A DNA stretch of 64,000 bases from Escherichia phage vB_EcoM_CRJP21: the sequence record OQ708376.1, one strand, 5' to 3'. Of this stretch, positions 17,162-50,351 are shown in pieces; position 1 is the stretch's first letter; each line of letters starts with the position of its first letter. Made by a program: the position numbers and the translations under genes. Below the pieces are notes generated by a model. That model was not told where the DNA came from and did not search any database. It saw only the letters and a list, made by a program, of their open reading frames with translations.

Positions 17162-17162
17162 A

Positions 17163-17195
17163 AGAAAAGGGAGAACTGACGTTCTCCCTTTTTTA
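17163..17195. terminator. Bidirectional rho-independent terminator between convergent thyA and fibre genes
   Basis: A-tract, GGGAGAAC-tgac-GTTCTCCC, T-tract. Confidence 0.65.
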
Positions 17196-19160
17196 TTATC
17201 TAATTGTTACCAATGTTCTTCCGTCGAAACGTACATCAGGTGTTGAAGGTATACTGAACACTACGTTAGTGCCGTTAAACGTCACGCTATCGACCTCAAC
17301 ACGAGTATAGACACCAGAACTAACCTGTTCCTGTATCTCTGCTGTGACGATGTTTGAGGCTGTTACAGTAAGGGTGTAGTAGTTACCACTTAAGACCCAA
17401 GATGAAATGGTAAAAGCATCGGTTCTCACTGAACCTGAACCAATTGGAACCCATTGACCTTGAACTTTTTGCATTGAAGTACGCTCGGTATTGGAGTATG
17501 CAATCATACCATCAACGCCAACAGAGTTATCAATAGTAGCTAGTACAGGTAATTGGATACCATATCTATTAAAACGTGTTCTTATAGTTCCATTATCATA
17601 GATACTTACATCAGCATAATTACCCATTGATAGTTTTAAATCAGAACTAACTAATTGGATTGTACTTTGATTAGTAGCACTTTCTAATGTAATTATACCA
17701 TTAGCTAATAGATTTATATTTTTAAATTTATTAGTTGTTCCATTAAAATTAGTATTAGCTGTAAAAGTACTAACACCATTAACTGTAATGGTATCTGATG
17801 CAGCATCACCTAATGTGGTATTACCTTGAATGTTCAAATTACCACTAGCAGTTATATTACTAGCTGATGTATCCCCAGTTAATGTACTTGTACCATCAAC
17901 AACAATATTACCATGAAACGCACTTTCGCCATTTTTAAATTCAACTTGAACTTTATTCATTGAACTAAATGAAATAATATTACTACTAGCACTTAATCCC
18001 ACATTAGTATTAGTTGCATTATCAAATCTTAGTACTGGCGTTGATGCAGGTGTTGATGTTGATTGATATAATGTTAGTGTTGAATTATTAATTCGAACAC
18101 GTTCTGTACCAGCAGTACTGAACCCAATTGCGTCATCGGCTGGATGAAATATACCAGTATTAGCATCTGACCACTTAGTTGGGTCATTACCTGGGTTATT
18201 CGTTGGGTCAAACGGATTATTGTTAAATGTCAATGCTGGTGCTGCTGCACTTCCATACACCACCCCAAAACGCCCAGAGCCGTCTGTTCCATCATTATAC
18301 ATGGAATCACCAGTTCTACGTAAACACTCAATCACAACGTTATCTATGGATGTTTGAACGGTCCCTGCGTTTGTCCTAAATTGACGATGATTTGCAATCA
18401 TTACAGTATTGTCATATAATACTGAAGCAGCGGAAATGCTTGTTCTTGACTGGCGTAGACGTATGTTTTTATCTTCAGTTATAATAATCCAATCACCATC
18501 TGATAGTGCGGTTTGGTTCATTGGAACACCTGAAGCAAATGGTTTGGTTAAGTCAGCATCTGTTGCTAAATTTTTAAGACCATCATGACCAGTACTCGGA
18601 ATAGATGCAGGAATAATTCTAGCGAAAGCGTATGTTACTAGTTTAGCACCAGATATATTTGGATTAGAGTCAACATAATATAAAATTTCAATCCAATTAC
18701 CTTGTCCAGTTGGATTTGTAGGAGTAAATGTAACAGGACTTGTTTGTGGATTATTTGCTTCATAATGGGCTTGTGCGGCATCCATAATACCACGAACAAC
18801 ATAATAATCACCATTTAGTGATGCTGCTGGTGCTGGTAGTGGAGTTTGTGCTAAAGGTGGATCAATATCATCTGGAATAGGATTATATGTACCAACAAAT
18901 TGTAAACCACTAGTTACTGAATCTGGTAATTGGGAAGTAAGAAGTTTACCATTTGCATCTAAGTTTGCAAAACGGCGATATGCCATAGTACCATCTTCAA
19001 AATCCAGAACACCTTCAAACGATTTCCATTCCTTATTGTATCTAATCATCCCTGATCTTATTACATCAGCGGTTTCTTTTGATGGTGCTTTCGGTAACTC
19101 TAAAAAAGATTTACTATCGATAATTACACCACCATCACCTCTAATTCGATTTATACTCAT
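17196..19160 (-). CDS. Tail fibre-like protein
   Basis: 654 aa; GAGGAA RBS; Ser/Thr/Asn/Gly-rich beta-structure-like composition (NxT/S-rich stretches); located in the fibre cluster. Confidence 0.5.
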   Translation of the reverse strand: MSINRIRGDGGVIIDSKSFLELPKAPSKETADVIRSGMIRYNKEWKSFEGVLDFEDGTMAYRRFANLDANGKLLTSQLPDSVTSGLQFVGTYNPIPDDIDPPLAQTPLPAPAASLNGDYYVVRGIMDAAQAHYEANNPQTSPVTFTPTNPTGQGNWIEILYYVDSNPNISGAKLVTYAFARIIPASIPSTGHDGLKNLATDADLTKPFASGVPMNQTALSDGDWIIITEDKNIRLRQSRTSISAASVLYDNTVMIANHRQFRTNAGTVQTSIDNVVIECLRRTGDSMYNDGTDGSGRFGVVYGSAAAPALTFNNNPFDPTNNPGNDPTKWSDANTGIFHPADDAIGFSTAGTERVRINNSTLTLYQSTSTPASTPVLRFDNATNTNVGLSASSNIISFSSMNKVQVEFKNGESAFHGNIVVDGTSTLTGDTSASNITASGNLNIQGNTTLGDAASDTITVNGVSTFTANTNFNGTTNKFKNINLLANGIITLESATNQSTIQLVSSDLKLSMGNYADVSIYDNGTIRTRFNRYGIQLPVLATIDNSVGVDGMIAYSNTERTSMQKVQGQWVPIGSGSVRTDAFTISSWVLSGNYYTLTVTASNIVTAEIQEQVSSGVYTRVEVDSVTFNGTNVVFSIPSTPDVRFDGRTLVTIR

Positions 19161-19247
19161 TTAAATATTTCCTCAGAATAGATTTATATGATGTATTTAT
19201 TTTAGTTAAAAGAAAAGGCCAAGCATAGACTTGACCTTAATATGTTA

Positions 19248-20615
19248 TTAAACTACAGAAACTCCACTCATTGAAGGTGGAACGATTTGTTCAGCAATTA
19301 ATAATAAATTAGTTACTGTAAACTTACCACCATGTGACATTAACGTAATAGGTGTTCCATTAGTTACTAGGTTACCATTTTCATCAACACTTAAAAATGT
19401 ATTAAATGAAATAGTATCAACCGTGATAGTTGGTGTTCTAACTTGATTAATATTATTAAATTGAGTATTTGTAAAATTAATAGCAAAACTCATATTAGAC
19501 GAACTAGTAGTCCATGTGCCGTATATATTTAATTTGAAATTTAGAGAGGAATTGAAATTATAAACATTTAACTTATTACTTGTTGTATTGAAGAAACTAT
19601 CTAGTGTTCCACTAGTGGGTGTGAATGATTTAAGTATTTGAATTAAATTTTGTTCAATTCCATCAGTGAATTGTATATTTAAGTTTGAATAATATAATTC
19701 TCTTTTTCTACGAATTAGGTTAGTAGTATTATTACCATTAACAAATAATCCAGTACTATCTGATGTTAATATATTACCAGAGGTATTACTGATTTTAGAT
19801 GAAATTACATTAGCGTCAATAGATATACCATTTCCCGCAGTATATGAGGATGGTCCAGTTGGAACATACAACCCATTTACGTCAGTTGTTAACGTATTTC
19901 CTGGAGTTGTGCTTATTTTAGTTGAAATTGTTTCTGAACTAATAGATATACCAGTACCACCAACGTAATTTATTCTTGTATTAGGTACAAATAATCCAGT
20001 ACTGTCAGTAGATAGTATATTACCAGAAGTAGAACTAATTTTAGTACTGATTACTTCACCACTGATAGAAACACCGGAACCAGCACTATAAGATACTGAA
20101 TTATCAGGCACAAATAAACCATTACTTGTAGAAGATAGTATGTTTTCTGATGTCGGGTCAACCTTCACACTTATTACATCATCACTAATAGTAATGCCAG
20201 TACCAGCATTGTAAGTTATCGAATTATCCGGTACGAATAGACCAGTACTATCAGTTGTAAGGATATTTCCTAAAGATGTGCTTATTTTTGATGATATAAT
20301 ATTATTATCTATTTTAATACTGTCACTACCTGTATATGTTACTGTATTATCAGGTACATATAAACCATTAGAATCATTACTAAGAATATTTCCTTGTGTT
20401 GAACTTATTTTTGTGGATATTAAATTAGAGGATATTGATATACCAGTTCCACCTTGATAGATAATAGTGTTATCTGGAACATATAAACCATCACTTTCAT
20501 GAATTAAAATATTTTTATTTTTAGTACTAATATCAGGCACTGGTATCTTGCCTATTAGTTCTCCGTCATAACTAATATCACCATTTACAATAATATCTGT
20601 TCTTATATTATACAT
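19248..20615 (-). CDS. Tail fibre protein with ~35-aa tandem repeats
   Basis: About 8 repeats of the form ISTKISS..GNILS.DS.GL(Y/F)VPDN...Y..G.G..I; ATG at 20615 (M9 of the track ORF) has an AAGGAA RBS, whereas the track start at 20639 is a TTG. Confidence 0.55.
   Translation of the reverse strand: MYNIRTDIIVNGDISYDGELIGKIPVPDISTKNKNILIHESDGLYVPDNTIIYQGGTGISISSNLISTKISSTQGNILSNDSNGLYVPDNTVTYTGSDSIKIDNNIISSKISTSLGNILTTDSTGLFVPDNSITYNAGTGITISDDVISVKVDPTSENILSSTSNGLFVPDNSVSYSAGSGVSISGEVISTKISSTSGNILSTDSTGLFVPNTRINYVGGTGISISSETISTKISTTPGNTLTTDVNGLYVPTGPSSYTAGNGISIDANVISSKISNTSGNILTSDSTGLFVNGNNTTNLIRRKRELYYSNLNIQFTDGIEQNLIQILKSFTPTSGTLDSFFNTTSNKLNVYNFNSSLNFKLNIYGTWTTSSSNMSFAINFTNTQFNNINQVRTPTITVDTISFNTFLSVDENGNLVTNGTPITLMSHGGKFTVTNLLLIAEQIVPPSMSGVSVV
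19770..20550 (-). repeat. In-frame ~105-bp tandem coding repeats within the fibre gene
   Basis: Repeated GL(Y/F)VPDN-containing units at protein level with matching DNA periodicity; boundaries approximate. Confidence 0.5.
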
Positions 20616-20640
20616 ATATTTTTCCTTATAATGAAACAAA

Positions 20641-20667
20641 AAAGGTCAACAATAGTTGACCTTTATT
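20641..20667 (-). terminator. Palindromic hairpin / putative terminator between fibre-cluster genes
   Basis: AAAGGTCAAC-aata-GTTGACCTTT, with a T-tract on the minus strand. Confidence 0.4.
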
Positions 20668-20669
20668 AA

Positions 20670-21449
20670 TTAACGTATACGTTCAGGAATATCAATACCT
20701 TCATATACCCAAATTGCAGCTTGTTGTGCTTTATAAATTGCATCAGGATCTAAATCATCAACTGCATCAATTGCAGCACACTGTTTGTCACATTCCGAAA
20801 ACAATTGTTCAATCATTGCAAATGCTTCAGTATATAGTTGAGTCATTTCAGCAGCAGATAATTTTACAATTGCGTCATCAAGAAAAATAGAAACACTTTC
20901 AGAGCCTGAAGTAACTTGTGTATAATAATTAAGAAGCATTTGACGACCAGACATATCAGTACTGTAACGATGACCATTGAACATATAACCAGAATTCATA
21001 CGATTTGTACGTTCTGATATAGTTCTTGCTTTTAAATCAGCTTTAACATCTGCTATTGGCATATCAATATAATGATATGTTTTAAGAACAGTTAGTGCTT
21101 TATATTCTTCGGTAGCGTCTTCTAAAAATTCAACAATAGGTTGATTTTCATCTTTTAATTTAATAAACTCCAACGGTTGTTCAATAGCATTAACATTTCC
21201 AAGATTTTTATACACTAACCACCAAAAACCTTCTTCTTTTCTAACAGCATCATTAGGTTCTACTGGGGAACCATCTTTACTTGAAATACCATAAAGAGTT
21301 CTAATATCACTATAAAGATAACGATAGGTTTGTGGATCTTCTGGTGTTGCACCTGGACGTTCTTTAAGTCCTTTTACACCAATTGGATTGGAAATAATAC
21401 TTCCCAATTCATAATTTTCTTTTGAATTTCCTTTCACATATGTGAACAT
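20670..21449 (-). CDS. Hypothetical protein (possible fibre assembly or accessory protein)
   Basis: 259 aa between two fibre genes; GAGGT RBS; no catalytic motif recognised. Confidence 0.4.
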   Translation of the reverse strand: MFTYVKGNSKENYELGSIISNPIGVKGLKERPGATPEDPQTYRYLYSDIRTLYGISSKDGSPVEPNDAVRKEEGFWWLVYKNLGNVNAIEQPLEFIKLKDENQPIVEFLEDATEEYKALTVLKTYHYIDMPIADVKADLKARTISERTNRMNSGYMFNGHRYSTDMSGRQMLLNYYTQVTSGSESVSIFLDDAIVKLSAAEMTQLYTEAFAMIEQLFSECDKQCAAIDAVDDLDPDAIYKAQQAAIWVYEGIDIPERIR

Positions 21450-21513
21450 ATAACTACCTCACTTGTTATGATGGTGTCACCCAAAATGAGTGACACCTTT
21501 ATTATTATAATTA

Positions 21514-24500
21514 TTAAGCAGTACGTTGTGCAATAAACATATCTGTTACTGGACTCACCCCGTCATAAATGACTTGGTAGATAGTTACAGAGTTTGCAGT
21601 TTTGTTTAGAGTTCCATCAACAACCGCATAAGTACCATCAGTAGTAAAGTTTCTATTACCTGTTGCATCTTGTTTTACATAAATGTATACTGAAGATGCT
21701 TTACCACCACCGATTAGACCAGTGATTGGTGCTAGAGTTGTATCTTGATCTAGAGTGATAAAGTATACGTTGCTAGTACCGTCTGGGGTCCAAGTGCCAG
21801 TTGGTGCAATAACAGAAGAAGTTACTTGATTAGGAATAACATCATATTTTTTAGTAGTTACTGTTGTAGTAGTCAAGTCAGCATTAGTAGTTGTTAATTG
21901 ACCAGTTACAGTTACATCTTTATCAAATACTGCATTTTCTTTGAAAGAAGATGTTGCATTGACAGTTAATGTATCAGCAGCCGCGTCACCTAAAACAACA
22001 CTACCATTTGCAGTCATTAATCCAGTAACAGTTAAAGTACCACCGATTGTTGCTGCTCCAGTAACAGATGCACTAGCAAGTGTTGCTGCACCAGAAGTAG
22101 TAATAGTAGTTACTGAAGTTGCTGCTAGGGTTGCAGTACCTGTTGCAGAAATATCACCACCAACAGTTAGGTTACCAGAAGTAATCCCAACGGTTCCAGT
22201 AATGTTAGCACCACTTGACATTGTTACTGCACCACCAAATGAACCAGTAGTAGTTACTTCAAGGGTGTTCCCTTTTAGCAGACCAGTTGCAGTAATACTT
22301 GTACCTGCGGTAATGCTAGTACCAGCAGCAACACTGTTGGTTGCAGTTAATGATTTAACAGCTACATCAGAGTTTGCTTGGTTTAGTGTTGCGTTTAGAA
22401 CACCAGTTACTGTAAAGTTACCGTTGTTAACTACGTTACCATTGATTGTTAAGTTGTTGTTTTGTGAACCAACATCACCAATAGTTGCTGATTTAGAAAT
22501 CAACTCTGCACCAGAAGTAATATTACCCGCTGCACTAATAGTGTCAGCCGCAACAACTGCATAAGGTTCGATTGTTTGACCACTAACATCAATATCAGCG
22601 TTGATACCACCATCTACACGCAAGGAACCAGCAATGTAAGTGTTAGGGAAAATCTGAACTGTTTCTGGTTGTTCACCGATCTTAGTACCAATAATAACAT
22701 TAGAACCAGTTTTCACTGCACCAGAAGTTGTTAGTGAACCTAAAGTTGCTGCACCAGTTACACCTAGTGTACCACCAATTGTTGCATTGTTAGTAACTGC
22801 TAATGCAGTTCCTTCACCATTAAGAGTGATTGATGGAGCAGTTGCTGCACCAGTTACACCTAATGTACCACCAATTGTTGCATTACCATCTGAATGTAGT
22901 GTGGTTGCAACAGAAAGACTGTTTGCAACTACATCAGTACTAGCTAAATCCAATGCACCTGGCGTTAATGTACCAGTAATGTTAACATTATTACCAAAGG
23001 TTGCTGCACCAGTTACATCTATTGTAGTACTAAATGTACCAGAAGTTGCAGATACCGCACCTGAATCTAGTGAACCGACAGTTGCCTTTCCAGTTACACC
23101 TAGTGTACCACCAATTGTTGCATTGTTAGTAACTGCTAATGCAGTTCCTTCACCATTAAGAGCGATTGATGGAGCAGTTGCTGCACCAGTTACACCTAGT
23201 GTACCACCGATTGTTGCATTGCCGTTTGAATGTAGGGTTGTTGCAACAGAAAGACTGTTAGCATCTACATCAGTACTAGATAAATCCAATGCACCTGGGG
23301 TTAACGTGCCAGTAATATTAACATTGTTACCAAATGTTGCTGCACCTGTTACACCTAGTGTAGTACTAAATGTACCAGAAGTTGCAGATATTGCACCTGA
23401 ATCTAGTGAACCGACTGTTGCCTTTCCAGTTACATCTAAAGTACCACCAACTGTTCCATTTGTGGTTACTGCCAATGTACCAGTACTTAATTCTTGTGCA
23501 GTTACCTTACCGGATGCAGTAACAGTTGAAGTGGAAACACCACCAGTTAGAGTACTTGCACCAGTAACACTTAATGTGGTTGCAGCAGTTACGCTATTCA
23601 CGTTAAGATCAGCACCGGATAGGTCCAAACCACCTTCAGGAATAAATGCACCCTTAACAGTTAGTTTTTGTACAGTACTGTCACCAGTTACATCTAGAGT
23701 AGATGCTGTAAGGCCACCATTCATACTAGCTGCACCAGTAACACCAAGGGTAGTAGTTACAGTTGCACTATTAAGGGTAGAGTCACCAGAAATATTAGCA
23801 CTTGGTGCGGTAATAGTTCCTGCATCAACTTGAATACCACCATCAACTACTTGAATACCACCAGTATTAACTGTTAGTTTACCACCAGTTGACAATGTGT
23901 TTGAAACTGTAGTTGCACCAGTTAACGTTGTGGTTCCAGTAACACCCAAGTTACCAGAAATAGATGGACTACCTGTAATGTTACCTGTAGTTAGAATCAA
24001 ATCAGTACCTACAGTGGTAGAGCCAGTACTTTCTAGTGTTACACCGACGATGTTTGCAGAACTTAGGTCAATAGAACCATCAACAGTTAAGTTACCTTGA
24101 ACGGTTGCATCACCTAGAGAAGTTAATGTCTTCACAGACACATCAGTTGTGCTAAGATCAATAACACCCGCAGTTAGTGTTCCAGATACTGCTAAATTAC
24201 CAGTAATCGCGGTATTTTTAGTAATGGATACATTTTCTGCCGCTGAAGTAATAGAACCAACAGTAAGTACACCACCAACAGTTGCGTTATTAGTTACATT
24301 TAGAGCAGTTCCAACACCAGATAGTGTTGCTGACCCACCAGTAATTGCACCTGAGATTGAAGCTGTTGCTGCTGAAACATCACCAGAAACTACTGCATTT
24401 GTTGCATTTAGAGCAGACACTGTAACTTCAGTACTTTGAACTTTAGGTAGAACGTTGATACCTTCTGCACTACTAACTGTAATAATACCAGTACTTGTTA

Positions 24501-27500
24501 GAGATTTAACAGATACATCAGAACCACTTAAATCAACTGTACCAGAAACAACAAGATCTCCACCAATATTTGCTCCAGCGGTAGTAGTAATGGATTTTGC
24601 ACTTACATCAGTTGTGCTCAAATCAATTGCACCTGGTGTTACTGTACCAGAAACTGTTAGGTCACCAGTAATAGATGTATTATTGGAAATAGATACACCA
24701 TCAACGTTACTAATTGTTGGGGTTTCTACAGAAACTGCTTTAACTTTACCTGAAGAAGTTACGTCAGCTACGGTAGATGCACCAGTAACATTCAAATTAG
24801 TAATATTTGCAGTTGTTGAACCAAGGGTTGCAATAGTTGCATCAGTACTTTGAAGTTTAGGTAGAACACTACTAATTGTAGATTCATTACTAACAATTGC
24901 ACCAGTACTAGTTAAAGATTTGACAGTAACATCAGCAGTAGTAAGATCTACTGTACCATTAACAGTTAGGTTACCACCAATAGTTGCACCAGCAGTAGTA
25001 GTAATGGATTTAGCATTAACATCAGTTGTTGCTAGATCGATAGAGCCTGGAATAACTGCACCAGTAACGGTTAGGTCACCAGTTACATTTGTATTATTGG
25101 AAATAGTGACACCACTTGCATTTGAAATGGTTGGGGTAACCAACGATGCAGTTGTAGTTTCACCAGTTACAGTTAAAGTTGACCCAACTAGAACAGATGA
25201 GCTTGAGTAAATTGTACCCAAATTAGCAGATCCGGTAACAGTTATATCATCAGCATTAACAGTAGTTGCCGTTATGGTAGTACTATTAAGTACAGGAAGT
25301 ACGTTAGCATTAACAAGGTCATTACTTTTAACAATACCAGAAGAAGTTAGTGATTTAACGTTAATGTCTGCTGCTGATAAATCAAAAGAACCTTGAACCA
25401 CAAGATCTCCACCAATATTTGCACCAGCGGTAGTAGTGATTGATTTCGCACTAACATCAGTAGTACTCAAATCAATTGTACCTGGGGTTACTGTACCAGT
25501 AACTGTTAGATTTCCAGTAATATCAACATTTTCTGTGAAGTTAGTATTACCACTAATAGTTGGTGCAGTCAGAGTTGTTGCACTAATATTAGTACCGTTA
25601 ATTGTTTGTCCACTTACAGTTCCACTCGCAGTGATAGTAGGAGCCGTTACTTCAGTAGATGCACTAATTGTTGGTGCAGATACAGAAGTTGTACCAGTAA
25701 TAGAACCAGAACTTACTGAACCAGCGGATAATGCACCAGAAAGAGTTGCAGTTGTACCAGCAATATCACCAGTAACAGTTAGTTTAGCACCCACGGTAGT
25801 GTTACCAGTACTTTCAAGGGTTGCACCTTTAATATTTGTCGCAGCAACAACTGAGTTTGGTGTTAGATCCTGACCACTTACATCAACAGTTAACCCAGTT
25901 ACGGTGCCAGTAAAATCGACATCATTAAGAATTGCTTTACCACCAACTTGTAGGAATGGTGTACTAGGGTCTTGTGTTGCGTTACCTGTAATGGTTAGGT
26001 AATCTAATTTGTTTAGGCCATTACCAGTAATACCATACGTAGAAAGTGCAGCATTACCAAAAGTTGCCGTTTTTAGAACGTTCAGTGTTGAAGGAGAAAC
26101 TAATTCTGATTGAACTTCGTTAGGTAAAATCACGGTTGGACGTTGACTTGGTGCAGTATATCCAAATCCAAGTTTTACAGCAGAATCTTGACTACTTTGG
26201 CCTAAGCTGATAGCTTTAAATGATGCAGTACTATTATACCCAGTAATATTAGAACCAAGAGTAACACCACCAACTAATGAAGTTGCACCAGTAACGTTCA
26301 AAGATGCTGCATTAATATCGTCTAATTGGAATGTTCCACCAAGAACACCAGAAATATTAATATTATTAAAATTAGCAGTTCCAGTACTTTCAATATTTGG
26401 TATAGTTGCAGTTCCGGTGACTTCAAAGTCAGCAACTTTGGTTTTTCCTTTTTGAACTTCTAATAGTGGTGTATCTGGAGCTTGTGTTTCGTTACCAGAA
26501 ACTGTTAGATAATCTAATTTGTTTAGGCCATTACCAGTAATGCCATAAGACGATAATGACGCATTACCAAAAGTTGCAGTTTTAAGAACGTTCAATGTAG
26601 AAGGAGAAACTACTTCTGATTGAACTTCATTAGGTAGAATAACTGTTGGGCGTTGACCGGGTGCAGTATATCCAAAACCTAGTTTCACTGCTGCATCTTG
26701 ACTATTTTGACCTAAGCTAATAGCTTTAAAGGTAGCAGTACTATTATACCCAGTAATATTAGAACCAAGAGTAACACCACCAACTAACGAAGTGGCCCCA
26801 GTAACGTTCAATGTTACTGCATTAATATCATCTAGTTGGAATGTTCCACCAAGAACACCAGAAATATTAATATTATTAAAATTAGCAGTTCCAGTACTTT
26901 CAATATTTGGTATAGTTGCGGTTCCTGTAACTTCAAAATCGGCAACTTTGGTTTTTCCTTTTTGAACTTCTAATAGTGGGGTGTCTGGTGATTGTGTATT
27001 GTTACCAGAAACTGTTAGATAATCTAATTTGTTTAGACCATTACCAGTAATACCATAAGAAGATAATGACGCATTACCAAAAGAAGCAGATGTCAAAACT
27101 GTTAAGTTTGCAGGTGACATTAACTCGGACTGAATTTCGTTTTGTAGAATAACAGTTGGGCGTTTACCAGGAGCAGTGTAAGGGAAGCTTAATCTGAAGG
27201 TTTGTGATTCAGAGTTAGAACCAATACGAATGTCTTTAAAAGTAGCAGTACTGTTAATACCAGTTACGTTAGCACCGAAAGTTACTGCACCTTGTTGGTT
27301 AGATGCACCAGTAACGTTCAATGTTACTGCATTTAAGTCAGATAGATTAAACTCACCACCAAGTGTACCACTAATTGTCACATCTTTAAATGTAGCAGTA
27401 CCAGTACTACTAATATCTGTTGTACTTACATTAGTAATTTCTGCGGTATTAGCAGTAATTTTATCAAATGCAGCAGTAGTCCCAACATCAGCAGTAATAT

Positions 27501-27903
27501 TACCTTTAAATGCTGTTGTTTCAGCAACTTCTAAGTTTTTAACTTTAGTTGCTTGTAGAGTGGTTGTACCAGCAGTTTGTGTAAAATCAGAACCAACTGA
27601 TACAGTACCGTTAAAGGTAGCGTTTGAATTAATTGTTGCTGTATCAGACCCGACCACTGCACTACCGATTGTAGTATTACCCTCAACACCAAGACCACCA
27701 GAAAGTGTTGCTTTGCCACCTACATCTAAAGTAGATGTAATATTGGCAGTTGATGATTCAATGGCAGTAAAAGTTGCATTTGCAAAAGTTACAGTACCAT
27801 TTACAGTTAGGTTATTGTTGAAAACAGCATTTCCTTTGACTAAAAGATCCTTACCAACCGTACCAGCACCAGTAATATCTAAGTCAGTTTTTATTGAGTA
27901 CAT
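21514..27903 (-). CDS. Giant repetitive fibre / adhesin-like structural protein
   Basis: 2129 aa, Thr/Gly/Ala/Val/Ser/Asn-rich; GGAGGG RBS; built from at least three families of tandem repeats; no enzymatic motif. Confidence 0.6.
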   Translation of the reverse strand: MYSIKTDLDITGAGTVGKDLLVKGNAVFNNNLTVNGTVTFANATFTAIESSTANITSTLDVGGKATLSGGLGVEGNTTIGSAVVGSDTATINSNATFNGTVSVGSDFTQTAGTTTLQATKVKNLEVAETTAFKGNITADVGTTAAFDKITANTAEITNVSTTDISSTGTATFKDVTISGTLGGEFNLSDLNAVTLNVTGASNQQGAVTFGANVTGINSTATFKDIRIGSNSESQTFRLSFPYTAPGKRPTVILQNEIQSELMSPANLTVLTSASFGNASLSSYGITGNGLNKLDYLTVSGNNTQSPDTPLLEVQKGKTKVADFEVTGTATIPNIESTGTANFNNINISGVLGGTFQLDDINAVTLNVTGATSLVGGVTLGSNITGYNSTATFKAISLGQNSQDAAVKLGFGYTAPGQRPTVILPNEVQSEVVSPSTLNVLKTATFGNASLSSYGITGNGLNKLDYLTVSGNETQAPDTPLLEVQKGKTKVADFEVTGTATIPNIESTGTANFNNINISGVLGGTFQLDDINAASLNVTGATSLVGGVTLGSNITGYNSTASFKAISLGQSSQDSAVKLGFGYTAPSQRPTVILPNEVQSELVSPSTLNVLKTATFGNAALSTYGITGNGLNKLDYLTITGNATQDPSTPFLQVGGKAILNDVDFTGTVTGLTVDVSGQDLTPNSVVAATNIKGATLESTGNTTVGAKLTVTGDIAGTTATLSGALSAGSVSSGSITGTTSVSAPTISASTEVTAPTITASGTVSGQTINGTNISATTLTAPTISGNTNFTENVDITGNLTVTGTVTPGTIDLSTTDVSAKSITTTAGANIGGDLVVQGSFDLSAADINVKSLTSSGIVKSNDLVNANVLPVLNSTTITATTVNADDITVTGSANLGTIYSSSSVLVGSTLTVTGETTTASLVTPTISNASGVTISNNTNVTGDLTVTGAVIPGSIDLATTDVNAKSITTTAGATIGGNLTVNGTVDLTTADVTVKSLTSTGAIVSNESTISSVLPKLQSTDATIATLGSTTANITNLNVTGASTVADVTSSGKVKAVSVETPTISNVDGVSISNNTSITGDLTVSGTVTPGAIDLSTTDVSAKSITTTAGANIGGDLVVSGTVDLSGSDVSVKSLTSTGIITVSSAEGINVLPKVQSTEVTVSALNATNAVVSGDVSAATASISGAITGGSATLSGVGTALNVTNNATVGGVLTVGSITSAAENVSITKNTAITGNLAVSGTLTAGVIDLSTTDVSVKTLTSLGDATVQGNLTVDGSIDLSSANIVGVTLESTGSTTVGTDLILTTGNITGSPSISGNLGVTGTTTLTGATTVSNTLSTGGKLTVNTGGIQVVDGGIQVDAGTITAPSANISGDSTLNSATVTTTLGVTGAASMNGGLTASTLDVTGDSTVQKLTVKGAFIPEGGLDLSGADLNVNSVTAATTLSVTGASTLTGGVSTSTVTASGKVTAQELSTGTLAVTTNGTVGGTLDVTGKATVGSLDSGAISATSGTFSTTLGVTGAATFGNNVNITGTLTPGALDLSSTDVDANSLSVATTLHSNGNATIGGTLGVTGAATAPSIALNGEGTALAVTNNATIGGTLGVTGKATVGSLDSGAVSATSGTFSTTIDVTGAATFGNNVNITGTLTPGALDLASTDVVANSLSVATTLHSDGNATIGGTLGVTGAATAPSITLNGEGTALAVTNNATIGGTLGVTGAATLGSLTTSGAVKTGSNVIIGTKIGEQPETVQIFPNTYIAGSLRVDGGINADIDVSGQTIEPYAVVAADTISAAGNITSGAELISKSATIGDVGSQNNNLTINGNVVNNGNFTVTGVLNATLNQANSDVAVKSLTATNSVAAGTSITAGTSITATGLLKGNTLEVTTTGSFGGAVTMSSGANITGTVGITSGNLTVGGDISATGTATLAATSVTTITTSGAATLASASVTGAATIGGTLTVTGLMTANGSVVLGDAAADTLTVNATSSFKENAVFDKDVTVTGQLTTTNADLTTTTVTTKKYDVIPNQVTSSVIAPTGTWTPDGTSNVYFITLDQDTTLAPITGLIGGGKASSVYIYVKQDATGNRNFTTDGTYAVVDGTLNKTANSVTIYQVIYDGVSPVTDMFIAQRTA
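22640..23460 (-). repeat. Tandem coding repeat family 1 (~321-bp units) in the giant fibre gene
   Basis: Near-identical DNA blocks around 22770-22900 and 23090-23230, encoding repeated ...NATIGGTLGVTGAATAPSI.LNGEGTALAVTNNATIGGTLGVTG...; boundaries approximate. Confidence 0.6.
24450..25520 (-). repeat. Tandem coding repeat family 2 (~420-bp units) in the giant fibre gene
   Basis: Repeated DNA around 24590, 24990 and 25420, encoding ...IDLSTTDVSAKSITTTAGANIGGDLVV.G..DLS... units; boundaries approximate. Confidence 0.55.
25950..27430 (-). repeat. Tandem coding repeat family 3 (~510-bp units, about 3 copies) in the giant fibre gene
   Basis: The string taatctaatttgtttaggccattaccagtaat recurs near 26001, 26511 and 27021; protein repeats GNASLSSYGITGNGLNKLDYLTVSGN..Q.PDTPLLEVQKGKTKVADFEVTGTATIPNIESTGTANFNNINISG... 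Confidence 0.65.
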
Positions 27904-28006
27904 TTATACCCTCCATTATAACCTTGTTAATATGTATATATTTAGTTTTATTATGCTGTTATCCAACAATTAATATGTTATTTGACAAAAGCAAATATAA
28001 TAAAAA

Positions 28007-28042
28007 ACCAGACTTATTTAGGACAAGTCTGGTTAATTTTTT
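28007..28042 (-). terminator. Rho-independent terminator after the 298-aa fibre gene
   Basis: Perfect 10-bp stem AACCAGACTT / AAGTCTGGTT flanked by an A-tract upstream and a T-tract downstream (so a U-run follows the stem on either strand). Confidence 0.55.
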
Positions 28043-28939
28043 TTACTTACCAGAGATGACAATCTTACCACTGAAAGAAATATCAGAAGTGAAGATTACA
28101 TCACCAGTACTACTAATTTGTGTATCAGTCACTACCAATTCAAATGGAGATGACGCAACACTCCCAGGTGTTTTATTTGCATAAATTGAAATATACAAAT
28201 TATCTGGTGTTTGATTGTGTTCAGATGCAGGAATAGTGATTGTAAAATCACCAGCACTAGAAACCCAATCTGCTTGGTTTACCAATTTACTATAAGGTAC
28301 TGTCATTGTTGTTGCTCCTATAATGTTTACTTTAACACTTGCATAATCTGTGATTTGACCAATCACATCAATTGTTATATCCCCAATACCACTAACTGTT
28401 ACTGTGGTTTGGAATACTGATTCCAATGCAACATTACCTGGGTCACCTTGTAGTTGGATCATAATATCAGAACCTCTACCATGAACTGATTCTGGTAGTG
28501 TGTAAGTATAATGATCAGTAGTATCTGGTACTAATGTAAATGCAGAAACAGGAACTATTTCAGTAGTTACATATGAACTATCAGTCCCAGGTGAGCTACC
28601 TTTAAATGGTTTCCAAATACCAAGATCTTTAATATAAATTTGAAGAACATTAGTACTATCAACCAAAAAGTAAACGTCACCATCTAGACCGATTGAATCG
28701 GATGGTGCTGTTGTTCCACGTAAGATACCAGAACTACCACCACCACTGTGTGCGTTTAAATATCCCAATGTAACCAAGTGTGTGTTTGCAGTTGGTTCAC
28801 CTGCTGAAATTGGAAGAAGTTGTGTTCCTGAGTAGTTTTGAATTTGCACAACACTACCATTTGTGGTAATCTGTGCACCATTCTTCCCAAGAATGAAGGA
28901 CTTCTTCATGGTTCCTTCTAAATTAGAAAAAACTGCCAT
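28043..28939 (-). CDS. Receptor-binding / tail fibre protein sharing an N-terminal adaptor with the next gene
   Basis: 298 aa; AAGGAG RBS; N-terminus MAVFSNLEGTMKKSFILGKNGAQI nearly matches the start of 28956..31097. Confidence 0.5.
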   Translation of the reverse strand: MAVFSNLEGTMKKSFILGKNGAQITTNGSVVQIQNYSGTQLLPISAGEPTANTHLVTLGYLNAHSGGGSSGILRGTTAPSDSIGLDGDVYFLVDSTNVLQIYIKDLGIWKPFKGSSPGTDSSYVTTEIVPVSAFTLVPDTTDHYTYTLPESVHGRGSDIMIQLQGDPGNVALESVFQTTVTVSGIGDITIDVIGQITDYASVKVNIIGATTMTVPYSKLVNQADWVSSAGDFTITIPASEHNQTPDNLYISIYANKTPGSVASSPFELVVTDTQISSTGDVIFTSDISFSGKIVISGK

Positions 28940-28955
28940 TTTAATATAATCTCCT

Positions 28956-31097
28956 TTATGGTAGGGTTATGTAAGTTACGGGTTGGGCAGCTTTTAATGC
29001 TGCACCAGCGGCAGTTGCTGTTATGATAGGATCTGCAATATCAATTCTATATACGTTGTTTACAACATACACTGCACGAGTTATATACGTTCTCAAATCA
29101 CCACCATTTTCACCAGCACCGGATATAATGATCTCAGTACCAGCAGCTTTTGCATATTGGTTTTCACCCCATGACACACCCAATGCTTCTATGTATGTTT
29201 GTCCTGCTACCGTTTGTCTAATTGTGTCATATTTTCCGAAAAAAGAACCACCAACAGTTACAATATATTTTCCACCCGATTGTTTATGAATAATCGTGCC
29301 TTCAGAGAAATAGCGTCCCCCAGGAAAAGTATCGTATGGAATATAATATTGCTCAACTACAGGTATCAGTACTGGGCCACGGTGACCTGTACCATCGATT
29401 GCAGTTGTAACTTTAAAGTTATTAGATGATTGGTCTATTCTGTCTACATACATTTTAGAAAAACTATATTTTGAAACATTACAATCATCTTGAACAACAC
29501 AGTTAGTCCAATTAGTATAAGTATATTTAGAGCGAGTATAGATACCACCACCTTCGCCTTCGGTAGAGAGGTGTTGACCAATTACATCTAATTCTTTAGT
29601 TCTAATATCACTAAATTTAGATGATGATGGCAAACCACGCCAAAGGATTTTAGAACAAGTGATATTGCTCAATTCTGTATTATTTAACCAATTATCAGAA
29701 CCGGAAGTATAAACAAGTATAGAAGACTCTGGAATATAGAGATTAGAAATTTTAAAGTTTCTAGGTGGTCCAGCAAAACGACCAGAAGTTACACCCCAGT
29801 TTATTGAAACCATTCTATTTGTGATAGAAGGATCATTAAGCAAATGACCAGTCAACCCATCAATAATGAATTCTTTCGAACCATAAGTTATAACACCAGC
29901 AGTGGTTAATCCAGTACCAACAGAAACTAAAGATGATGGATAAACTTCATTATTAAGTATTTTAAAGTCCATTCCTAATTCAACGTGTATACATTGTCTA
30001 ACATTATATAGTCTGTTATTTTTAATAACAAAGTTTCTGACATATTGTGTATCTGGTGCATCTAAACCATAAGGACCAGAACCAGCAACGCCAATACCAA
30101 TGCCCCAGTTTGAAAGTGGGATTGGAGCGTTAGAACCATCAACGTTTTCAATTACGTTTCCTTCAATCACAAAACCATCAGGATAATGTGAGTTAATTAC
30201 GTTTAGTTCAATTGCATCACCATAGATATCATGAATATGGTTATATGAATATCTACCAACCTTCATTTTCTCACCAGTACCTTGTTGAAGAACACCATAC
30301 TTACATTGGGTCATTTCATTAAAGCAAAAATCTATTGTTCCTGGTTGTGTCATACCTTGCATTAAAAATGCAGCAGTACTTGTGATGTTTATAAATTTAT
30401 TAAAATAAAACTTACCATCGCCACCGAAGAATTTTAAATAACATCCAGTAAGTGTTGCAAATTGTATTTGGGAATTAATAACAGATACCATAGTACCACC
30501 GTTACCAGTAATAGTTCCCCCAAACCAAGTTACATCTTCTAGGTATATTGCAGTTTTGATACGGTAATTACCACCAGCCTGAATTTGGATTTTATTTTCT
30601 TTAGCATAAGCAGCACATAAATTTACAGCAGCAGTGTCATCAGTTTCGCCATCACCTTTAGCACCAAATTCTTCTGGTGTTATATAAAACTGGGCCTGTT
30701 GAACTGTACCTCCAGTAATAAGTCCGATGAAATCGCCACCATTTTTACTGGATAGAACTTTTTTATTAATGTATAATGATTTTACCCATGTACCATTACT
30801 TTTTGCAAAAATATCAACAATACCATCTTCATCAATTTGAAAATACGTATTATTGTTCTTTCCTACATCATCGGTAGGGGGTACAACACCAAATAATGCA
30901 TTAGGGTTATCTTCAAGATATTTTACGTTAACTGCTGAATTAGGGTCAGATGAAGTTCCTACCTTCAGTGGTAGGAACTGTTCTCCTAGATAATCTTTTA
31001 TAGAAACTGAATCATTGATAAAATTTATTGAAGCACCTTTTTTCCCCAATATGAATTTGGGCTGCATAGTTCCTTCAAAATTAGAAAATACTGCCAT
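28956..31097 (-). CDS. Tailspike-like protein with pectate-lyase-type (right-handed beta-helix) domain; putative polysaccharide depolymerase
   Basis: 713 aa; GGAGGA RBS; shared N-terminal adaptor MAVFSNFEGTMQPKFILGKKGASI; motif TPEEFGAKGDGETDDTAAVNLCAAYAKE typical of pectate-lyase-3-type tailspike beta-helices. Confidence 0.6.
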   Translation of the reverse strand: MAVFSNFEGTMQPKFILGKKGASINFINDSVSIKDYLGEQFLPLKVGTSSDPNSAVNVKYLEDNPNALFGVVPPTDDVGKNNNTYFQIDEDGIVDIFAKSNGTWVKSLYINKKVLSSKNGGDFIGLITGGTVQQAQFYITPEEFGAKGDGETDDTAAVNLCAAYAKENKIQIQAGGNYRIKTAIYLEDVTWFGGTITGNGGTMVSVINSQIQFATLTGCYLKFFGGDGKFYFNKFINITSTAAFLMQGMTQPGTIDFCFNEMTQCKYGVLQQGTGEKMKVGRYSYNHIHDIYGDAIELNVINSHYPDGFVIEGNVIENVDGSNAPIPLSNWGIGIGVAGSGPYGLDAPDTQYVRNFVIKNNRLYNVRQCIHVELGMDFKILNNEVYPSSLVSVGTGLTTAGVITYGSKEFIIDGLTGHLLNDPSITNRMVSINWGVTSGRFAGPPRNFKISNLYIPESSILVYTSGSDNWLNNTELSNITCSKILWRGLPSSSKFSDIRTKELDVIGQHLSTEGEGGGIYTRSKYTYTNWTNCVVQDDCNVSKYSFSKMYVDRIDQSSNNFKVTTAIDGTGHRGPVLIPVVEQYYIPYDTFPGGRYFSEGTIIHKQSGGKYIVTVGGSFFGKYDTIRQTVAGQTYIEALGVSWGENQYAKAAGTEIIISGAGENGGDLRTYITRAVYVVNNVYRIDIADPIITATAAGAALKAAQPVTYITLP

Positions 31098-50315: not shown

Positions 50316-50351
50316 TTTTGGACTCCATATAATTCGTTCATTCATTTGATT

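What the first reader, a model, noticed from the sequence alone, without database searches (positions are those of the whole stretch)
21514..27903. 2129-aa fibre gene composed of three families of high-identity tandem repeats
At least three distinct repeat families (about 321, 420 and 510 bp) are present, with some copies nearly identical at the DNA level. Such arrays are recombination-prone, so copy number and hence fibre length or antigenicity could vary between isolates or within a population. The protein is Thr/Gly/Ala/Val-rich, consistent with beta-solenoid or Ig-like shafts.
Basis: seen in the sequence. Interest (0 to 1): 0.5.

Follow-up and report, generated by a model that had tools for sequence, protein, structure and literature searches.

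The report
Jumbo-phage tail fibre with variable repeats
This is the giant (2129-residue) tail-fibre gene of a PBECO4-like jumbo coliphage, and its shaft is built from repeated modules whose number differs by whole units between closely related phages, which is an ordinary kind of phage-fibre evolution caught in unusually clean form.

Summary
The ORF (21514-27903, minus strand, 2129 aa) is real. It holds three tandem repeat families. The periods need correcting: 510 bp x3, 414-465 bp x4 and 336 bp x2.1. Whole units are 87-90% identical at best, with exact blocks of no more than 84 nt. The window is a PBECO4-like Asteriusvirus, a jumbo coliphage.

The gene is the annotated tail fibre of this genus. 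Its 1841-aa allele computes to 180.38 kDa, the mass listed for virion protein gp256 of phAPEC6.

Orthologue lengths fall into classes that differ by exact units:
- 2129 aa in the window and JP4.
- 1959 aa in UB and PBECO4, which is one 170-aa unit fewer.
- 1841 aa in the 121Q type, which is one 170-aa unit, one 112-aa unit and 6 aa fewer.

The shorter alleles carry chimeric units with two different junctions. One junction lies inside the 84-nt identical block. This is the signature of unequal homologous recombination, although collapsed short-read assemblies could mimic it in the closest pairs.

The ends of the protein are conserved and the shaft varies. A beta-helical shaft has only weak support, and Ig-like domains have none.

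This is a new, well-documented example of a known kind, of moderate-to-low interest. Speculative links to flagellum binding or to the tail "hairs" of these phages remain open.

The parts
21514..27903 (-). Tail-fibre gene, 2129 aa, 208.8 kDa, pI 4.2
   Evidence: The ORF is listed and translated. It matches PHROG 4549 at E=9e-263. It is 99.5% identical in nucleotides to the JP4 'tail fiber protein'.
27484..27903 (-). Conserved N-terminal region (aa 1-140), the presumed virion-attachment end
   Evidence: The first residues (MYSIKTDL...) are nearly invariant even in homologues of 30-35% overall identity (alignments). Hydrophobic residues recur every 6 residues, with autocorrelation 0.27, 0.24, 0.14 and 0.21 at lags 6, 12, 18 and 24. 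The attachment role is inferred from the general organisation of phage fibres.
26974..27483 (-). Repeat unit A1 (aa 141-310), the divergent copy
   Evidence: It is 62-67% identical in nucleotides to A2 and A3. The family-A HMM matches it with 302 bits.
26464..26973 (-). Repeat unit A2 (aa 311-480)
   Evidence: It is 88.6% identical in nucleotides and 91% in amino acids to A3, with dS 0.42 and dN/dS 0.11.
25954..26463 (-). Repeat unit A3 (aa 481-650), the copy that has no counterpart in UB, PBECO4, SD-6_S16 or 121Q-type alleles
   Evidence: The 170-aa gaps appear. The 510-nt gap in PBECO4 is at gene nt 985-1494.
26836..26919 (-). 84-nt block in A2 that is exactly identical to a block in A3 (26326-26409); it holds the deletion junction of the PBECO4 and SD-6_S16 alleles
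   Evidence: It is the longest exact direct repeat in the gene. It corresponds to the identity run at unit nt 55-138, and PBECO4 and SD-6_S16 switch from A2 to A3 states across it.
26326..26409 (-). The partner 84-nt block in A3
24001..25635 (-). Repeat array B: four units of 138-155 aa (aa ~757-1301), the older and more divergent family
   Evidence: Spacings are 465, 414 and 435 bp with 61-73% identity. blastn gives 77% over 278 nt and 89% over 127 nt. The family-B HMM finds four matches.
23140..23475 (-). Repeat unit Cb (aa 1477-1588)
   Evidence: It is 90.2% identical in nucleotides to Cc, with dS 0.27 and dN/dS 0.19. Tandem Repeats Finder reports a 336-bp period, 2.2 copies and 91% matches over 22732-23460.
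22804..23139 (-). Repeat unit Cc (aa 1589-1700), followed by a 48-nt start of a third copy at 22756-22803
   Evidence: 121Q-type alleles have one C unit fewer, seen as a 112-aa gap.
21517..21819 (-). C-terminal beta-sandwich domain (aa ~2029-2129), conserved
   Evidence: AlphaFold2 gives pLDDT 83-94 for this part. It aligns to the C-terminus of the phiTE fibre, PDB 9cuy_g, within a whole-protein match of E=5e-28. It occurs at the extreme C-terminus of 41 cluster representatives, most of them 487-2120 aa long; the shorter ones are probably fragments. In BFVD it matches the C-termini of many phage tail fibres. It is nearly invariant across the genus.
28006..28034 (-). Terminator-like hairpin (12-bp stem followed by a T run) between the upstream 298-aa gene and the fibre gene
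   Evidence: This is a consensus scan only.
28043..28939 (-). Upstream neighbour: 298-aa virion structural protein
   Evidence: It matches PHROG 10468 at E=5.5e-100. It has no relative in the PDB by sequence.
28956..31097 (-). 713-aa depolymerase-type tailspike (colanic-acid degradation family)
   Evidence: It matches PHROG 6117 at E=3e-264. The Pfam pectate-lyase-like match scores 24.3 bits, below the 27-bit cut-off.
20670..21449 (-). Downstream neighbour: 259-aa virion structural protein with DUF4376
   Evidence: It matches Pfam PF14301 at E=1e-9 and PHROG 17968.
19248..20639 (-). 463-aa protein with an Sf6-type tail-needle knob domain; its presence varies among relatives
   Evidence: It matches Pfam PF16532 at E=2e-27 and PDB 3rwn and 4k6b at E~1e-27. 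It is present in PBECO4, UB and BAU.Micro_ELP-22 and absent in JP4, 121Q and SP27.

Best explanation
The gene encodes the long virion fibre of a PBECO4-like Asteriusvirus, a Rak2-like jumbo myovirus of E. coli.

Architecture:
- A conserved N-terminal end (aa 1-140), presumably the anchor to the virion.
- A long Thr/Gly/Ser/Ala/Val-rich shaft of short beta-strands with a six-residue hydrophobic period. It is most likely a beta-helix that needs oligomerisation, presumably a trimer, to fold.
- A conserved ~100-residue C-terminal beta-sandwich.

The shaft is modular. It holds 170-aa A units, 138-155-aa B units and 112-aa C units.

Because adjacent units share up to 84 nt of identical DNA, unequal homologous recombination (or copy-choice replication) removes or adds whole in-frame units. 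The fibre therefore changes length in quanta without touching either functional end.

The window and JP4 carry the longest allele found among the relatives compared here (3 A units, 2 C units). UB, PBECO4 and SD-6_S16 lack one A unit. The 121Q/phAPEC6 type lacks one A unit and one C unit.

Shown here: the repeats, the whole-unit length classes, the chimeric junctions and the conservation pattern. From the literature: virion association of the orthologue. Inferred: trimeric state, beta-helical fold, which end attaches, and any functional consequence of length.
For: Repeats and exact blocks.

Whole-unit differences between orthologues that are 97-99% identical in amino acids:
- UB lacks 170 aa.
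- The 121Q type lacks 170, 112 and 6 aa.
- PBECO4 differs from the window by only about 10 mismatches plus a 510-nt gap at gene nt 985-1494.

Chimeric retained units:
- UB switches from A2 states to A3 states between unit nt 243 and 255.
- PBECO4 and SD-6_S16 switch inside the 84-nt identical block.
- The single C unit of the 121Q type is Cb-like at its 5' end and Cc-like at its 3' end (Fisher p=0.0016).

Both copies are under purifying selection, with dN/dS 0.11-0.19.

Unit counts vary across the wider family: A 1-3, B 1-4, C 0-2.

Fibre identity:
- PHROG 4549 and the tail-module context.
- A mass of 180.38 kDa, equal to phAPEC6 gp256, which was found in virions with 15 unique peptides (PMC7247149).
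- CBB_226 of phage CBB, which lies under the protein match to that genome and was also detected in virions (PMC5259590).

Relation to phiTE: the sequence matches the 793-aa fibre of phiTE (PDB 9cuy_g) at E=5e-28, covering an A-like unit and the C-terminal domain. The phiTE long tail fibre is described as a trimer with a predicted extended beta-helix (PMC11972413).

Beta-helix reading:
- Hydrophobic periodicity at 6, 12, 18 and 24 residues.
- A homologue scores 27.7 bits against Pfam Bactofilin, just under the 27.9-bit cut-off.
Against: - The closest allele pairs could differ through collapsed short-read assemblies rather than biology. The PBECO4, SD-6_S16 and SD-2_S15 records all end inside this gene, and one junction lies in the longest identical block, where an assembler would also mis-join.
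- The units are not recent copies. dS between A2 and A3 is 0.42, against 0.03-0.09 between orthologues. The alleles may therefore be old and exchanged between phages, rather than generated repeatedly.
- The shaft models have low confidence: pLDDT 52-65 for the distal shaft and 48 for the A units. The fold and the oligomeric state are not established.
- There is no direct evidence on where the fibre sits on the virion or what it binds.
Confidence: 0.72

Rival explanations
1. The one-unit-shorter alleles of the nearest relatives (PBECO4, SD-6_S16, perhaps UB) are assembly artefacts. Short-read assemblers collapsed A2 and A3 at shared k-mers, so these phages do not really differ in copy number. 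Only the deeper difference from the 121Q type would then be real.
For: - The PBECO4 junction falls inside the 84-nt identical block, and PBECO4 shows a small mixed patch of A2 states.
- The PBECO4 record's two ends overlap inside this gene, at gene nt 4779-5419, starting at the C repeat.
- The SD-6_S16 and SD-2_S15 records also end in this gene.
- PBECO4 has several gap openings in the gene's 3' part.
Against: - The UB junction lies where the window's A2 and A3 share only 11 identical nt. That is too short for a k-mer collapse.
- UB is an intact 1959-aa ORF annotated from a complete genome.
- The single unit of the 121Q type is about 90% identical to both A2 and A3 and has private states. The same 1841-aa form was recovered in the 121Q, SP27 and SHEFM2K records fetched, and eight further records gave matches of the same extent (unit comparison).
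- JP4, assembled from Illumina reads with SPAdes at 3588x depth, recovered three units (PMC12648861). Short reads can therefore resolve the array.
Confidence: 0.3
2. The length classes are old, stable alleles moved between co-infecting phages by ordinary homologous recombination in the flanks (mosaicism). They are not products of ongoing intragenic unequal crossing-over, so the array is not notably unstable.
For: - The units are old: dS is 0.27-0.42, against 0.03-0.09 for orthologues.
- The A2 region of the 121Q type is 10% diverged from the window's, while A1 next to it is 98.8% identical.
- Mismatches cluster in patches along the gene.
- A tract of differences near the 3' end separates the window from JP4 and UB.
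Against: - There are two distinct chimeric junctions among sequences that are otherwise 98-99.8% identical.
- PBECO4 differs from the window by only about 10 substitutions yet lacks a unit. That points to a recent event inside this lineage.
Confidence: 0.3
3. The product is not the baseplate fibre. It forms the long 'hairs' or whiskers seen along the sheath of phAPEC6 and CBB-type virions.
For: - The baseplate fibres of these phages look short by EM: 28.6 nm in CBB, and 'short tail fibers' in phAPEC6 and fEgEco12.
- The tail hairs of CBB measure 119 +/- 10 nm, and their gene is unassigned (PMC5259590, PMC7247149, PMC13070987).
- At 0.54-0.65 A per residue, 1841-2129 residues give about 100-138 nm. 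These ratios come from T4 gp34 (1289 aa, ~70 nm, my own knowledge) and the phiTE long tail fibre (predicted 512 A; the 793-aa length is that of PDB chain 9cuy_g, which I take to be that fibre) (PMC11972413).
- The orthologue CBB_226 is a virion protein (PMC5259590).
Against: - The gene lies among baseplate, tailspike and fibre genes.
- The phiTE long tail fibre is anchored on the baseplate wedge (PMC11972413). I take the 793-aa chain 9cuy_g matched here to be that fibre, on length alone.
- GAP32 has a homologue, but the CBB paper leaves open whether GAP32 has hairs.
- If each chain forms its own solenoid, the fibre would be only about 50 nm long.
Confidence: 0.2

Closest known systems
Asteriusvirus tail fibre orthologues (JP4 CDS0665, UB AXC36801, 121Q gp571, phAPEC6 gp256, SHEFM2K M2K_0545)
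   Same: They occupy the same locus with the same neighbours, are 84-99.7% identical in amino acids, and share the same N- and C-terminal regions and the same A, B and C modules.
   Different: The window, like JP4, carries the longest allele (2129 aa). It has one more A unit than UB and PBECO4, and one more A unit and one more C unit than the 121Q type.
Pectobacterium phage phiTE (Vequintavirus) 793-aa 'putative tail fiber protein', PDB 9CUY/9MJN chain g
   Same: The sequences are significantly similar (E=5e-28). The match covers an A-like unit (query 550-776 against chain 205-445) and the C-terminal domain (1944-2126 against 611-792). BFVD also gives a structural match to phiTE K9L5R6. The phiTE long tail fibre is described as a trimer with a predicted extended beta-helix (PMC11972413).
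   Different: The phiTE protein is 2.7 times shorter. Its N-terminal region, which holds the only residues built in the cryo-EM map (14-171), has no counterpart here. No solved coordinates therefore cover the parts that match.
T4 gp34, long tail fibre proximal subunit (the name given to relatives in GenBank)
   Same: It is also a very long fibrous virion protein with internal repeats, encoded in a fibre gene cluster (my own knowledge of T4).
   Different: No sequence similarity is detectable. The PDB sequence search at E<=1 returned only phiTE, although gp34 fragments are in the PDB (my own knowledge). Pfam, NCBIfam and PHROGs gave no gp34-type family. The name is a label of convenience.
'Long tail fiber proximal subunit' of Rak2-like jumbo phages (CBB_226, GAP32, Serratia BF, Salmonella 7t3, Klebsiella fENko-Kae01, Erwinia, Yersinia and Xanthomonas phages)
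   Same: These are full-length homologues at 31-38% identity with the same terminal regions. CBB_226 was detected in virions (PMC5259590). In fENko-Kae01 it is the only long tail fibre its authors identified, and that phage is flagellum-dependent (PMC11218385).
   Different: Their shafts are shorter, and the family-A HMM finds 1-3 weakly scoring A units. The high-identity A2/A3 and Cb/Cc pairs are specific to the PBECO4 lineage.
Phage receptor-binding or fibre genes with variable internal repeats (for example the collagen-like repeats in Streptococcus thermophilus phage host-range genes, and T-even fibre mosaics) - my own knowledge, not tested here
   Same: In-frame repeat units are gained or lost by recombination, which changes fibre length or specificity.
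   Different: The units here are much longer (112-170 aa). They lie in the shaft, and the tip stays nearly invariant.

Membership tests
Phage tail fibre protein (PHROG 4549) | Significant profile match over much of the protein | tested here: met
   E=9.2e-263, 875 bits, nine matched stretches.
Phage tail fibre protein (PHROG 4549) | Physically present in virions | not testable with these tools
   The evidence is indirect. The 1841-aa orthologue computes to 180.38 kDa. That equals phAPEC6 gp256 'tail fiber protein', found in virions with 15 unique peptides (PMC7247149). CBB_226 was also detected in virions (PMC5259590).
Phage tail fibre protein (PHROG 4549) | Encoded within the tail and baseplate gene module | tested here: met
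   It is flanked by a depolymerase tailspike, virion structural proteins and a knob-domain protein. Baseplate wedge, hub-lysozyme and sheath genes lie in the same window.
phiTE-type (Vequintavirus) long tail fibre | Shared C-terminal domain and A-like shaft unit | tested here: met
   PDB 9cuy_g at E=5e-28, with both regions aligned. BFVD K9L5R6 at E=8e-9.
phiTE-type (Vequintavirus) long tail fibre | N-terminal helical 'rip-cord' bundle that docks on the wedge and sheath initiator | tested here: not met
   No alignment covers phiTE residues 1-204. The window's N-terminus consists of beta-strand hexapeptide-like repeats.
T4 gp34-like long tail fibre proximal subunit | Detectable homology to gp34 | tested here: not met
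   No gp34 chain appeared in the PDB sequence search at E<=1. Pfam, PHROGs and NCBIfam gave no gp34 family.
YadA-like trimeric autotransporter head (the PBECO4 record calls the 3' fragment 'YadA domain protein') | Match to YadA head or stalk repeat profiles | tested here: not met
   Pfam gave no family even at E<=10.
Beta-solenoid / bactofilin-like beta-helix | Profile match or a confident beta-helical model | tested here: inconclusive
Ig-like domain shaft | Match to Ig-like or Big domain profiles, or Ig folds in the model | tested here: not met
   Pfam gave no Ig-like family. The models show short-strand solenoid-like segments, not Ig sandwiches.
Recombination-driven repeat-number polymorphism | Alleles that differ by integral in-frame units | tested here: met
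   Gaps of exactly 170 aa and 112 aa and a 510-nt gap in PBECO4.
Recombination-driven repeat-number polymorphism | Chimeric junction units at the deletion point | tested here: met
   UB, PBECO4 and SD-6_S16 show A2-to-A3 switch patterns with two different junctions.
Recombination-driven repeat-number polymorphism | Heterogeneity within a clonal population, or a measurable rate of change | not testable with these tools
   This needs read-level or long-read data from lysates.

The most novel reading that the evidence does not exclude
This fibre family may be the organelle that engages bacterial flagella, possibly identical to the ~120-nm tail 'hairs' of phAPEC6 and CBB-type virions. In that case the number of A and C modules would tune its reach.

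Three phages with homologues are reported to be flagellum-dependent:
- phiTE (PMC11972413).
- fENko-Kae01, whose only identified long tail fibre is the homologue (PMC11218385).
- The Asteriusvirus SHEFM2K, whose orthologue is 97.6% identical. I know of this report only through its citation in PMC11895373.

The nearly invariant C-terminal domain across hosts would fit either a conserved target or a docking role.
Probability: 0.15. Interest if true: 0.6.

Novelty: new member of a known kind. Interest (0 to 1): 0.33.

Why it matters
Fibre genes decide what a phage can reach and bind, and Asteriusvirus phages are being proposed for therapy. Three practical points follow from this gene.

- Length classes in exact module steps, with recombinant junctions, give a simple marker for typing these phages and checking their assemblies. 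The gene breaks or collapses several published assemblies and was left unannotated in the PBECO4 record.
- The natural 2-unit and 3-unit alleles in near-isogenic backgrounds are a ready-made experiment on whether fibre length affects adsorption.
- The conserved ends mark where an engineered shaft could be shortened or lengthened safely.

The phenomenon itself, modular fibres reshaped by recombination, is well known.

Tried and rejected
- Pfam and NCBIfam gave no family for the protein, even at E<=10. PF26209, precomputed for the homologues, is not in the Pfam copy at hand, so I could not name it. From the 184-aa partial protein P0019 it appears to cover the C-terminal region.
- A whole-protein self-BLASTP returned only the diagonal. 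I replaced it with 100-aa chunk searches.
- The AlphaFold2 model of A2, A3 and the linker (aa 300-770) was unusable, with pLDDT 48. The internal fold of the A unit is therefore unknown.
- The word-indexed protein search with the last 140 aa found only one partial protein. The full HMMER scan was needed.
- No other gene in the window shares the repeats. The arrays are therefore not copied from a paralogue within these 64 kb.
- My first attempt to rebuild the PBECO4 gene by joining the record ends failed. The end-to-start comparison was done by BLAST and MAFFT instead.
- The SHEFM2K paper is not held, so its flagellum claim is second-hand.
- I considered and dropped three readings: an N4-like virion RNA polymerase for the 3333-aa neighbour (it is a virion structural protein, PHROG 10938), homology to T4 gp34, and a YadA relationship (see the membership tests).

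Full report
OBSERVATION

Tandem Repeats Finder, the repeat finder and a self-BLASTN all show three families of tandem direct repeats inside it.

In protein coordinates the families are as follows.
- Family A has three 170-aa (510-bp) units at aa 141-310, 311-480 and 481-650. A2 and A3 are 88.6% identical in nucleotides and 91% in amino acids. A1 is only 62-67% identical to them.
- Family B has four units of 138-155 aa, with spacings of 465, 414 and 435 bp, over about aa 757-1301. Nucleotide identity is 61-77%, and one 127-nt piece reaches 89%.
- Family C has two 112-aa (336-bp) units at aa 1477-1588 and 1589-1700, plus the first 16 codons of a third. The two full units are 90% identical.

The longest exactly identical blocks are 84 nt (A2/A3), 73 nt (Cb/Cc) and 53 nt. 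'Nearly identical' is true only of sub-blocks.

The three arrays cover about 61% of the protein. The remainder, up to about aa 2010, is also repetitive at 25-40% amino-acid identity. Composition is T 18.7%, G 12.2%, S 10.5%, A 10.0% and V 9.8%.

WHAT THE WINDOW IS

The gene is 99.5% identical in nucleotides to the 'tail fiber protein' of Escherichia phage JP4. It matches 32 records by DNA, all but two of them Escherichia phages, and every record fetched belongs to the genus Asteriusvirus (PBECO4/121Q group, genomes of about 350 kb).

Over its whole length the window is 99.67% identical to PBECO4, and positions 17000-21500 are 100% identical. It is therefore a PBECO4-like isolate.

The surrounding genes form a tail and baseplate module: sheath, baseplate wedge, hub-lysozyme, a colanic-acid-type depolymerase tailspike, several virion structural proteins and an Sf6-type needle-knob protein.

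The protein matches PHROG 4549 'tail fiber protein' at E=9e-263. It has no Pfam or NCBIfam family.

The 1841-aa allele found in 121Q, SHEFM2K and phAPEC6-type phages computes to 180.38 kDa. That is exactly the mass listed for phAPEC6 gp256 'tail fiber protein', which was detected in purified virions with 15 unique peptides, three genes before thymidylate synthase as in the window (PMC7247149). The homologue CBB_226 was likewise found in CBB virions (PMC5259590; homology).

THE KEY TEST: DO RELATIVES DIFFER IN UNIT NUMBER?

They do, and in exact units.
- JP4 has 2129 aa, with no gaps against the window.
- UB has 1959 aa and a single gap of exactly 170 aa.
- SP27, SHEFM2K and 121Q have 1841 aa, with gaps of 170, 112 and 6 aa. 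By match extent the same form is present in G17, phAPEC6, Sharanji, slurp01 and E9.1.
- ph0011 and UE-S1 show the same two unit gaps.

The PBECO4 record ends inside this gene. Its two ends overlap over gene nt 4779-5419. Aligned to the window, PBECO4 shows only about 10 mismatches but a 510-nt gap at gene nt 985-1494.

At the 58 sites where A2 and A3 differ, the single remaining unit of each shorter allele reads as follows.
- In UB it is A2-like for the first 16 sites and A3-like afterwards. The switch lies between unit nt 243 and 255.
- In PBECO4 and SD-6_S16 it switches from A2 to A3 across the 84-nt identical block at unit nt 55-138. PBECO4 also has a three-site A2 patch.
- In the 121Q type the unit is about 90% identical to both A2 and A3 and has private states, so it is a distinct allele.
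- The single C unit of the 121Q type is Cb-like at its 5' end and Cc-like at its 3' end (Fisher p=0.0016).

Chimeric units with two different junctions are what unequal homologous recombination between neighbouring units produces.

HMMs built from the window's units find 1-3 A units, 1-4 B units (a fifth, weak match in UE-S1) and 0-2 strong C matches in the homologues examined. Three A units also occur in P0002 (58% identical) and in P0007 and P0008 (about 34% identical).

CAVEATS

First, a collapsed short-read assembly would give the same picture as a deletion, especially at the 84-nt block. Three records (PBECO4, SD-6_S16, SD-2_S15) break in this gene. Three observations argue against a general artefact.
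- The UB junction lies where only 11 nt are shared.
- The 121Q-type allele is distinct in sequence and was recovered in the same 1841-aa form in the three records fetched, with matches of the same extent in eight more.
- JP4, assembled from Illumina reads at 3588x depth, resolved three units (PMC12648861).

Second, the units are not recent duplicates. dS is 0.42 for A2/A3 and 0.27 for Cb/Cc, against 0.03-0.09 between window and 121Q or UB orthologous flanks. dN/dS is 0.11-0.19. The three-unit state is therefore old or was imported. The short alleles of near-identical phages look like losses, and both copies are functionally constrained.

ARCHITECTURE AND LIKELY MECHANISM

The N-terminal ~140 aa are nearly invariant even in homologues at 30-35% identity.

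The last ~100 aa fold as a confident beta-sandwich in AlphaFold2, with pLDDT 83-94. They are almost unchanged across the genus, even where the mid-shaft drops to 30-60% identity. This C-terminal domain sits at the very end of 41 cluster representatives, most of them 487-2120 aa long. In BFVD it matches the ends of many phage tail fibres.

The only relative with an entry in the PDB is the 793-aa 'putative tail fiber protein' of Pectobacterium phage phiTE (9CUY chain g, E=5e-28). The match covers an A-like unit and the C-terminal domain. Only the N-terminal residues of the phiTE fibres were built. The phiTE long tail fibre is described as a trimer with a predicted extended beta-helix of 512 A (PMC11972413).

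For the shaft, three lines of evidence point the same way.
- Hydrophobic residues recur every 6 residues.
- A homologue just misses the Pfam Bactofilin cut-off.

I therefore read the shaft as a beta-helix that needs oligomerisation to fold. Ig-like domains are not supported.

Length per unit cannot be fixed without a trimer model. At about 0.6 A per residue (intertwined trimer, as predicted for phiTE), an A unit adds about 10 nm and a C unit about 7 nm, and the fibre is about 100-140 nm long. If each chain is its own solenoid, these figures fall to less than half.

The mechanism I commit to is this. Whole in-frame modules are lost or gained by recombination between partly identical neighbouring units. 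Shaft length changes while both conserved ends stay intact.

COMPARISON WITH KNOWN FAMILIES

This is the annotated tail fibre of Asteriusvirus and a member of a fibre family spread through Rak2-like jumbo phages of Enterobacterales and Xanthomonas. A-like units also occur in vequintaviruses.

The GenBank label 'long tail fiber proximal subunit' (T4 gp34) and PBECO4's 'YadA domain protein' are not backed by any detectable similarity.

Variable internal repeats in phage fibre or host-range genes are a known phenomenon (my own knowledge). I found no description of this locus's unit polymorphism in the papers I could read on JP4, fEgEco12, phAPEC6, CBB or Sharanji.

OPEN AND MORE SPECULATIVE POINTS

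Three phages with homologues are reported as flagellum-dependent: phiTE, fENko-Kae01 (where the homologue is the only long tail fibre identified) and the Asteriusvirus SHEFM2K. The SHEFM2K report reached me only through a citation (PMC11972413, PMC11218385, PMC11895373).

By EM these phages show short baseplate fibres (28.6 nm in CBB) but tail hairs of about 119 nm whose gene is unassigned (PMC5259590, PMC7247149). A fibre of 1841-2129 residues could fit the hairs better than the short fibres. Neither idea can be tested here.

VERDICT

Variation within a population is untested.

This is a clear but ordinary case of modular fibre evolution, a new member of a known kind. Interest is about 0.33.

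Noticed in passing
window 19248-20639 (-): A 463-aa protein with an Sf6-type tail-needle knob domain (Pfam PF16532 E=2e-27; PDB 3rwn and 4k6b E~1e-27) varies in presence. It is present in the window, PBECO4, UB and BAU.Micro_ELP-22. It is absent from the same position in JP4, 121Q, SP27, SHEFM2K, G17 and Sharanji. It looks like a swappable receptor-binding cassette next to the fibre gene.
   Followed up: partly
L008, L012 and L013 (KC295538.1, PBECO4 record ends); window 22787-23833 (+), 24920-25210 (+), 27230-27973 (+): In the PBECO4 GenBank record the fibre gene is not annotated as one CDS. The linear record starts and ends inside it, with about 640 nt present at both ends. Only the last 515 codons are called, as 'YadA domain protein'. 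Three antisense ORFs are annotated as hypothetical proteins. The same long antisense ORFs (up to 348 aa) exist in the window and are almost certainly by-products of the codon bias of the repeats.
   Followed up: partly
L010 (Ecwhy_1) 3001-7935 and 8085-12506; L011 (BF17) 1-2272 and 2422-8142: In the fEgEco12, Ecwhy_1 and BF17 subgroup there are two fibre genes in tandem at this locus (about 1640 aa and about 1900 aa). Ecwhy_1 gene 207 and BF17's second gene both start MYSIKTDL. The first gene has a different C-terminus. This is gene-level duplication on top of the intragenic repeats.
   Followed up: partly
window 21514-21720 (last ~200 nt of the gene): Fifteen of the 35 nucleotide differences between the window and JP4 fall in the last 200 nt, and UB shows a similar cluster. 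PBECO4 and 121Q-type phages are identical to the window in protein there. This suggests a short recombination tract over the C-terminal domain.
   Followed up: partly
window 25480-25497 (aa 802-807): There is a 6-aa in-frame indel inside unit B1. It separates the PBECO4, JP4 and UB group from the 121Q, ph0011 and UE-S1 group.
   Followed up: no
window 40344-50345 (-): A 3333-aa ORF matches PHROG 10938 'virion structural protein' end to end. It probably corresponds to phAPEC6 gp245 (381.9 kDa), which lies next to the baseplate wedge gene in that phage's virion protein table and was detected in virions. Its function is unknown. It is a giant protein next to the baseplate wedge gene.
   Followed up: no
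window 21514-27903: The gene is 38.7% G+C against 34.8% for the whole window. This fits its Thr/Gly/Ala/Val codon content.
   Followed up: no
homologues P0001-P0019: Almost all homologues carry a precomputed Pfam family, PF26209, that is absent from the Pfam copy I could scan. From the 184-aa partial protein P0019 it seems to cover the C-terminal region. Its name and curated description could not be checked.
   Followed up: partly
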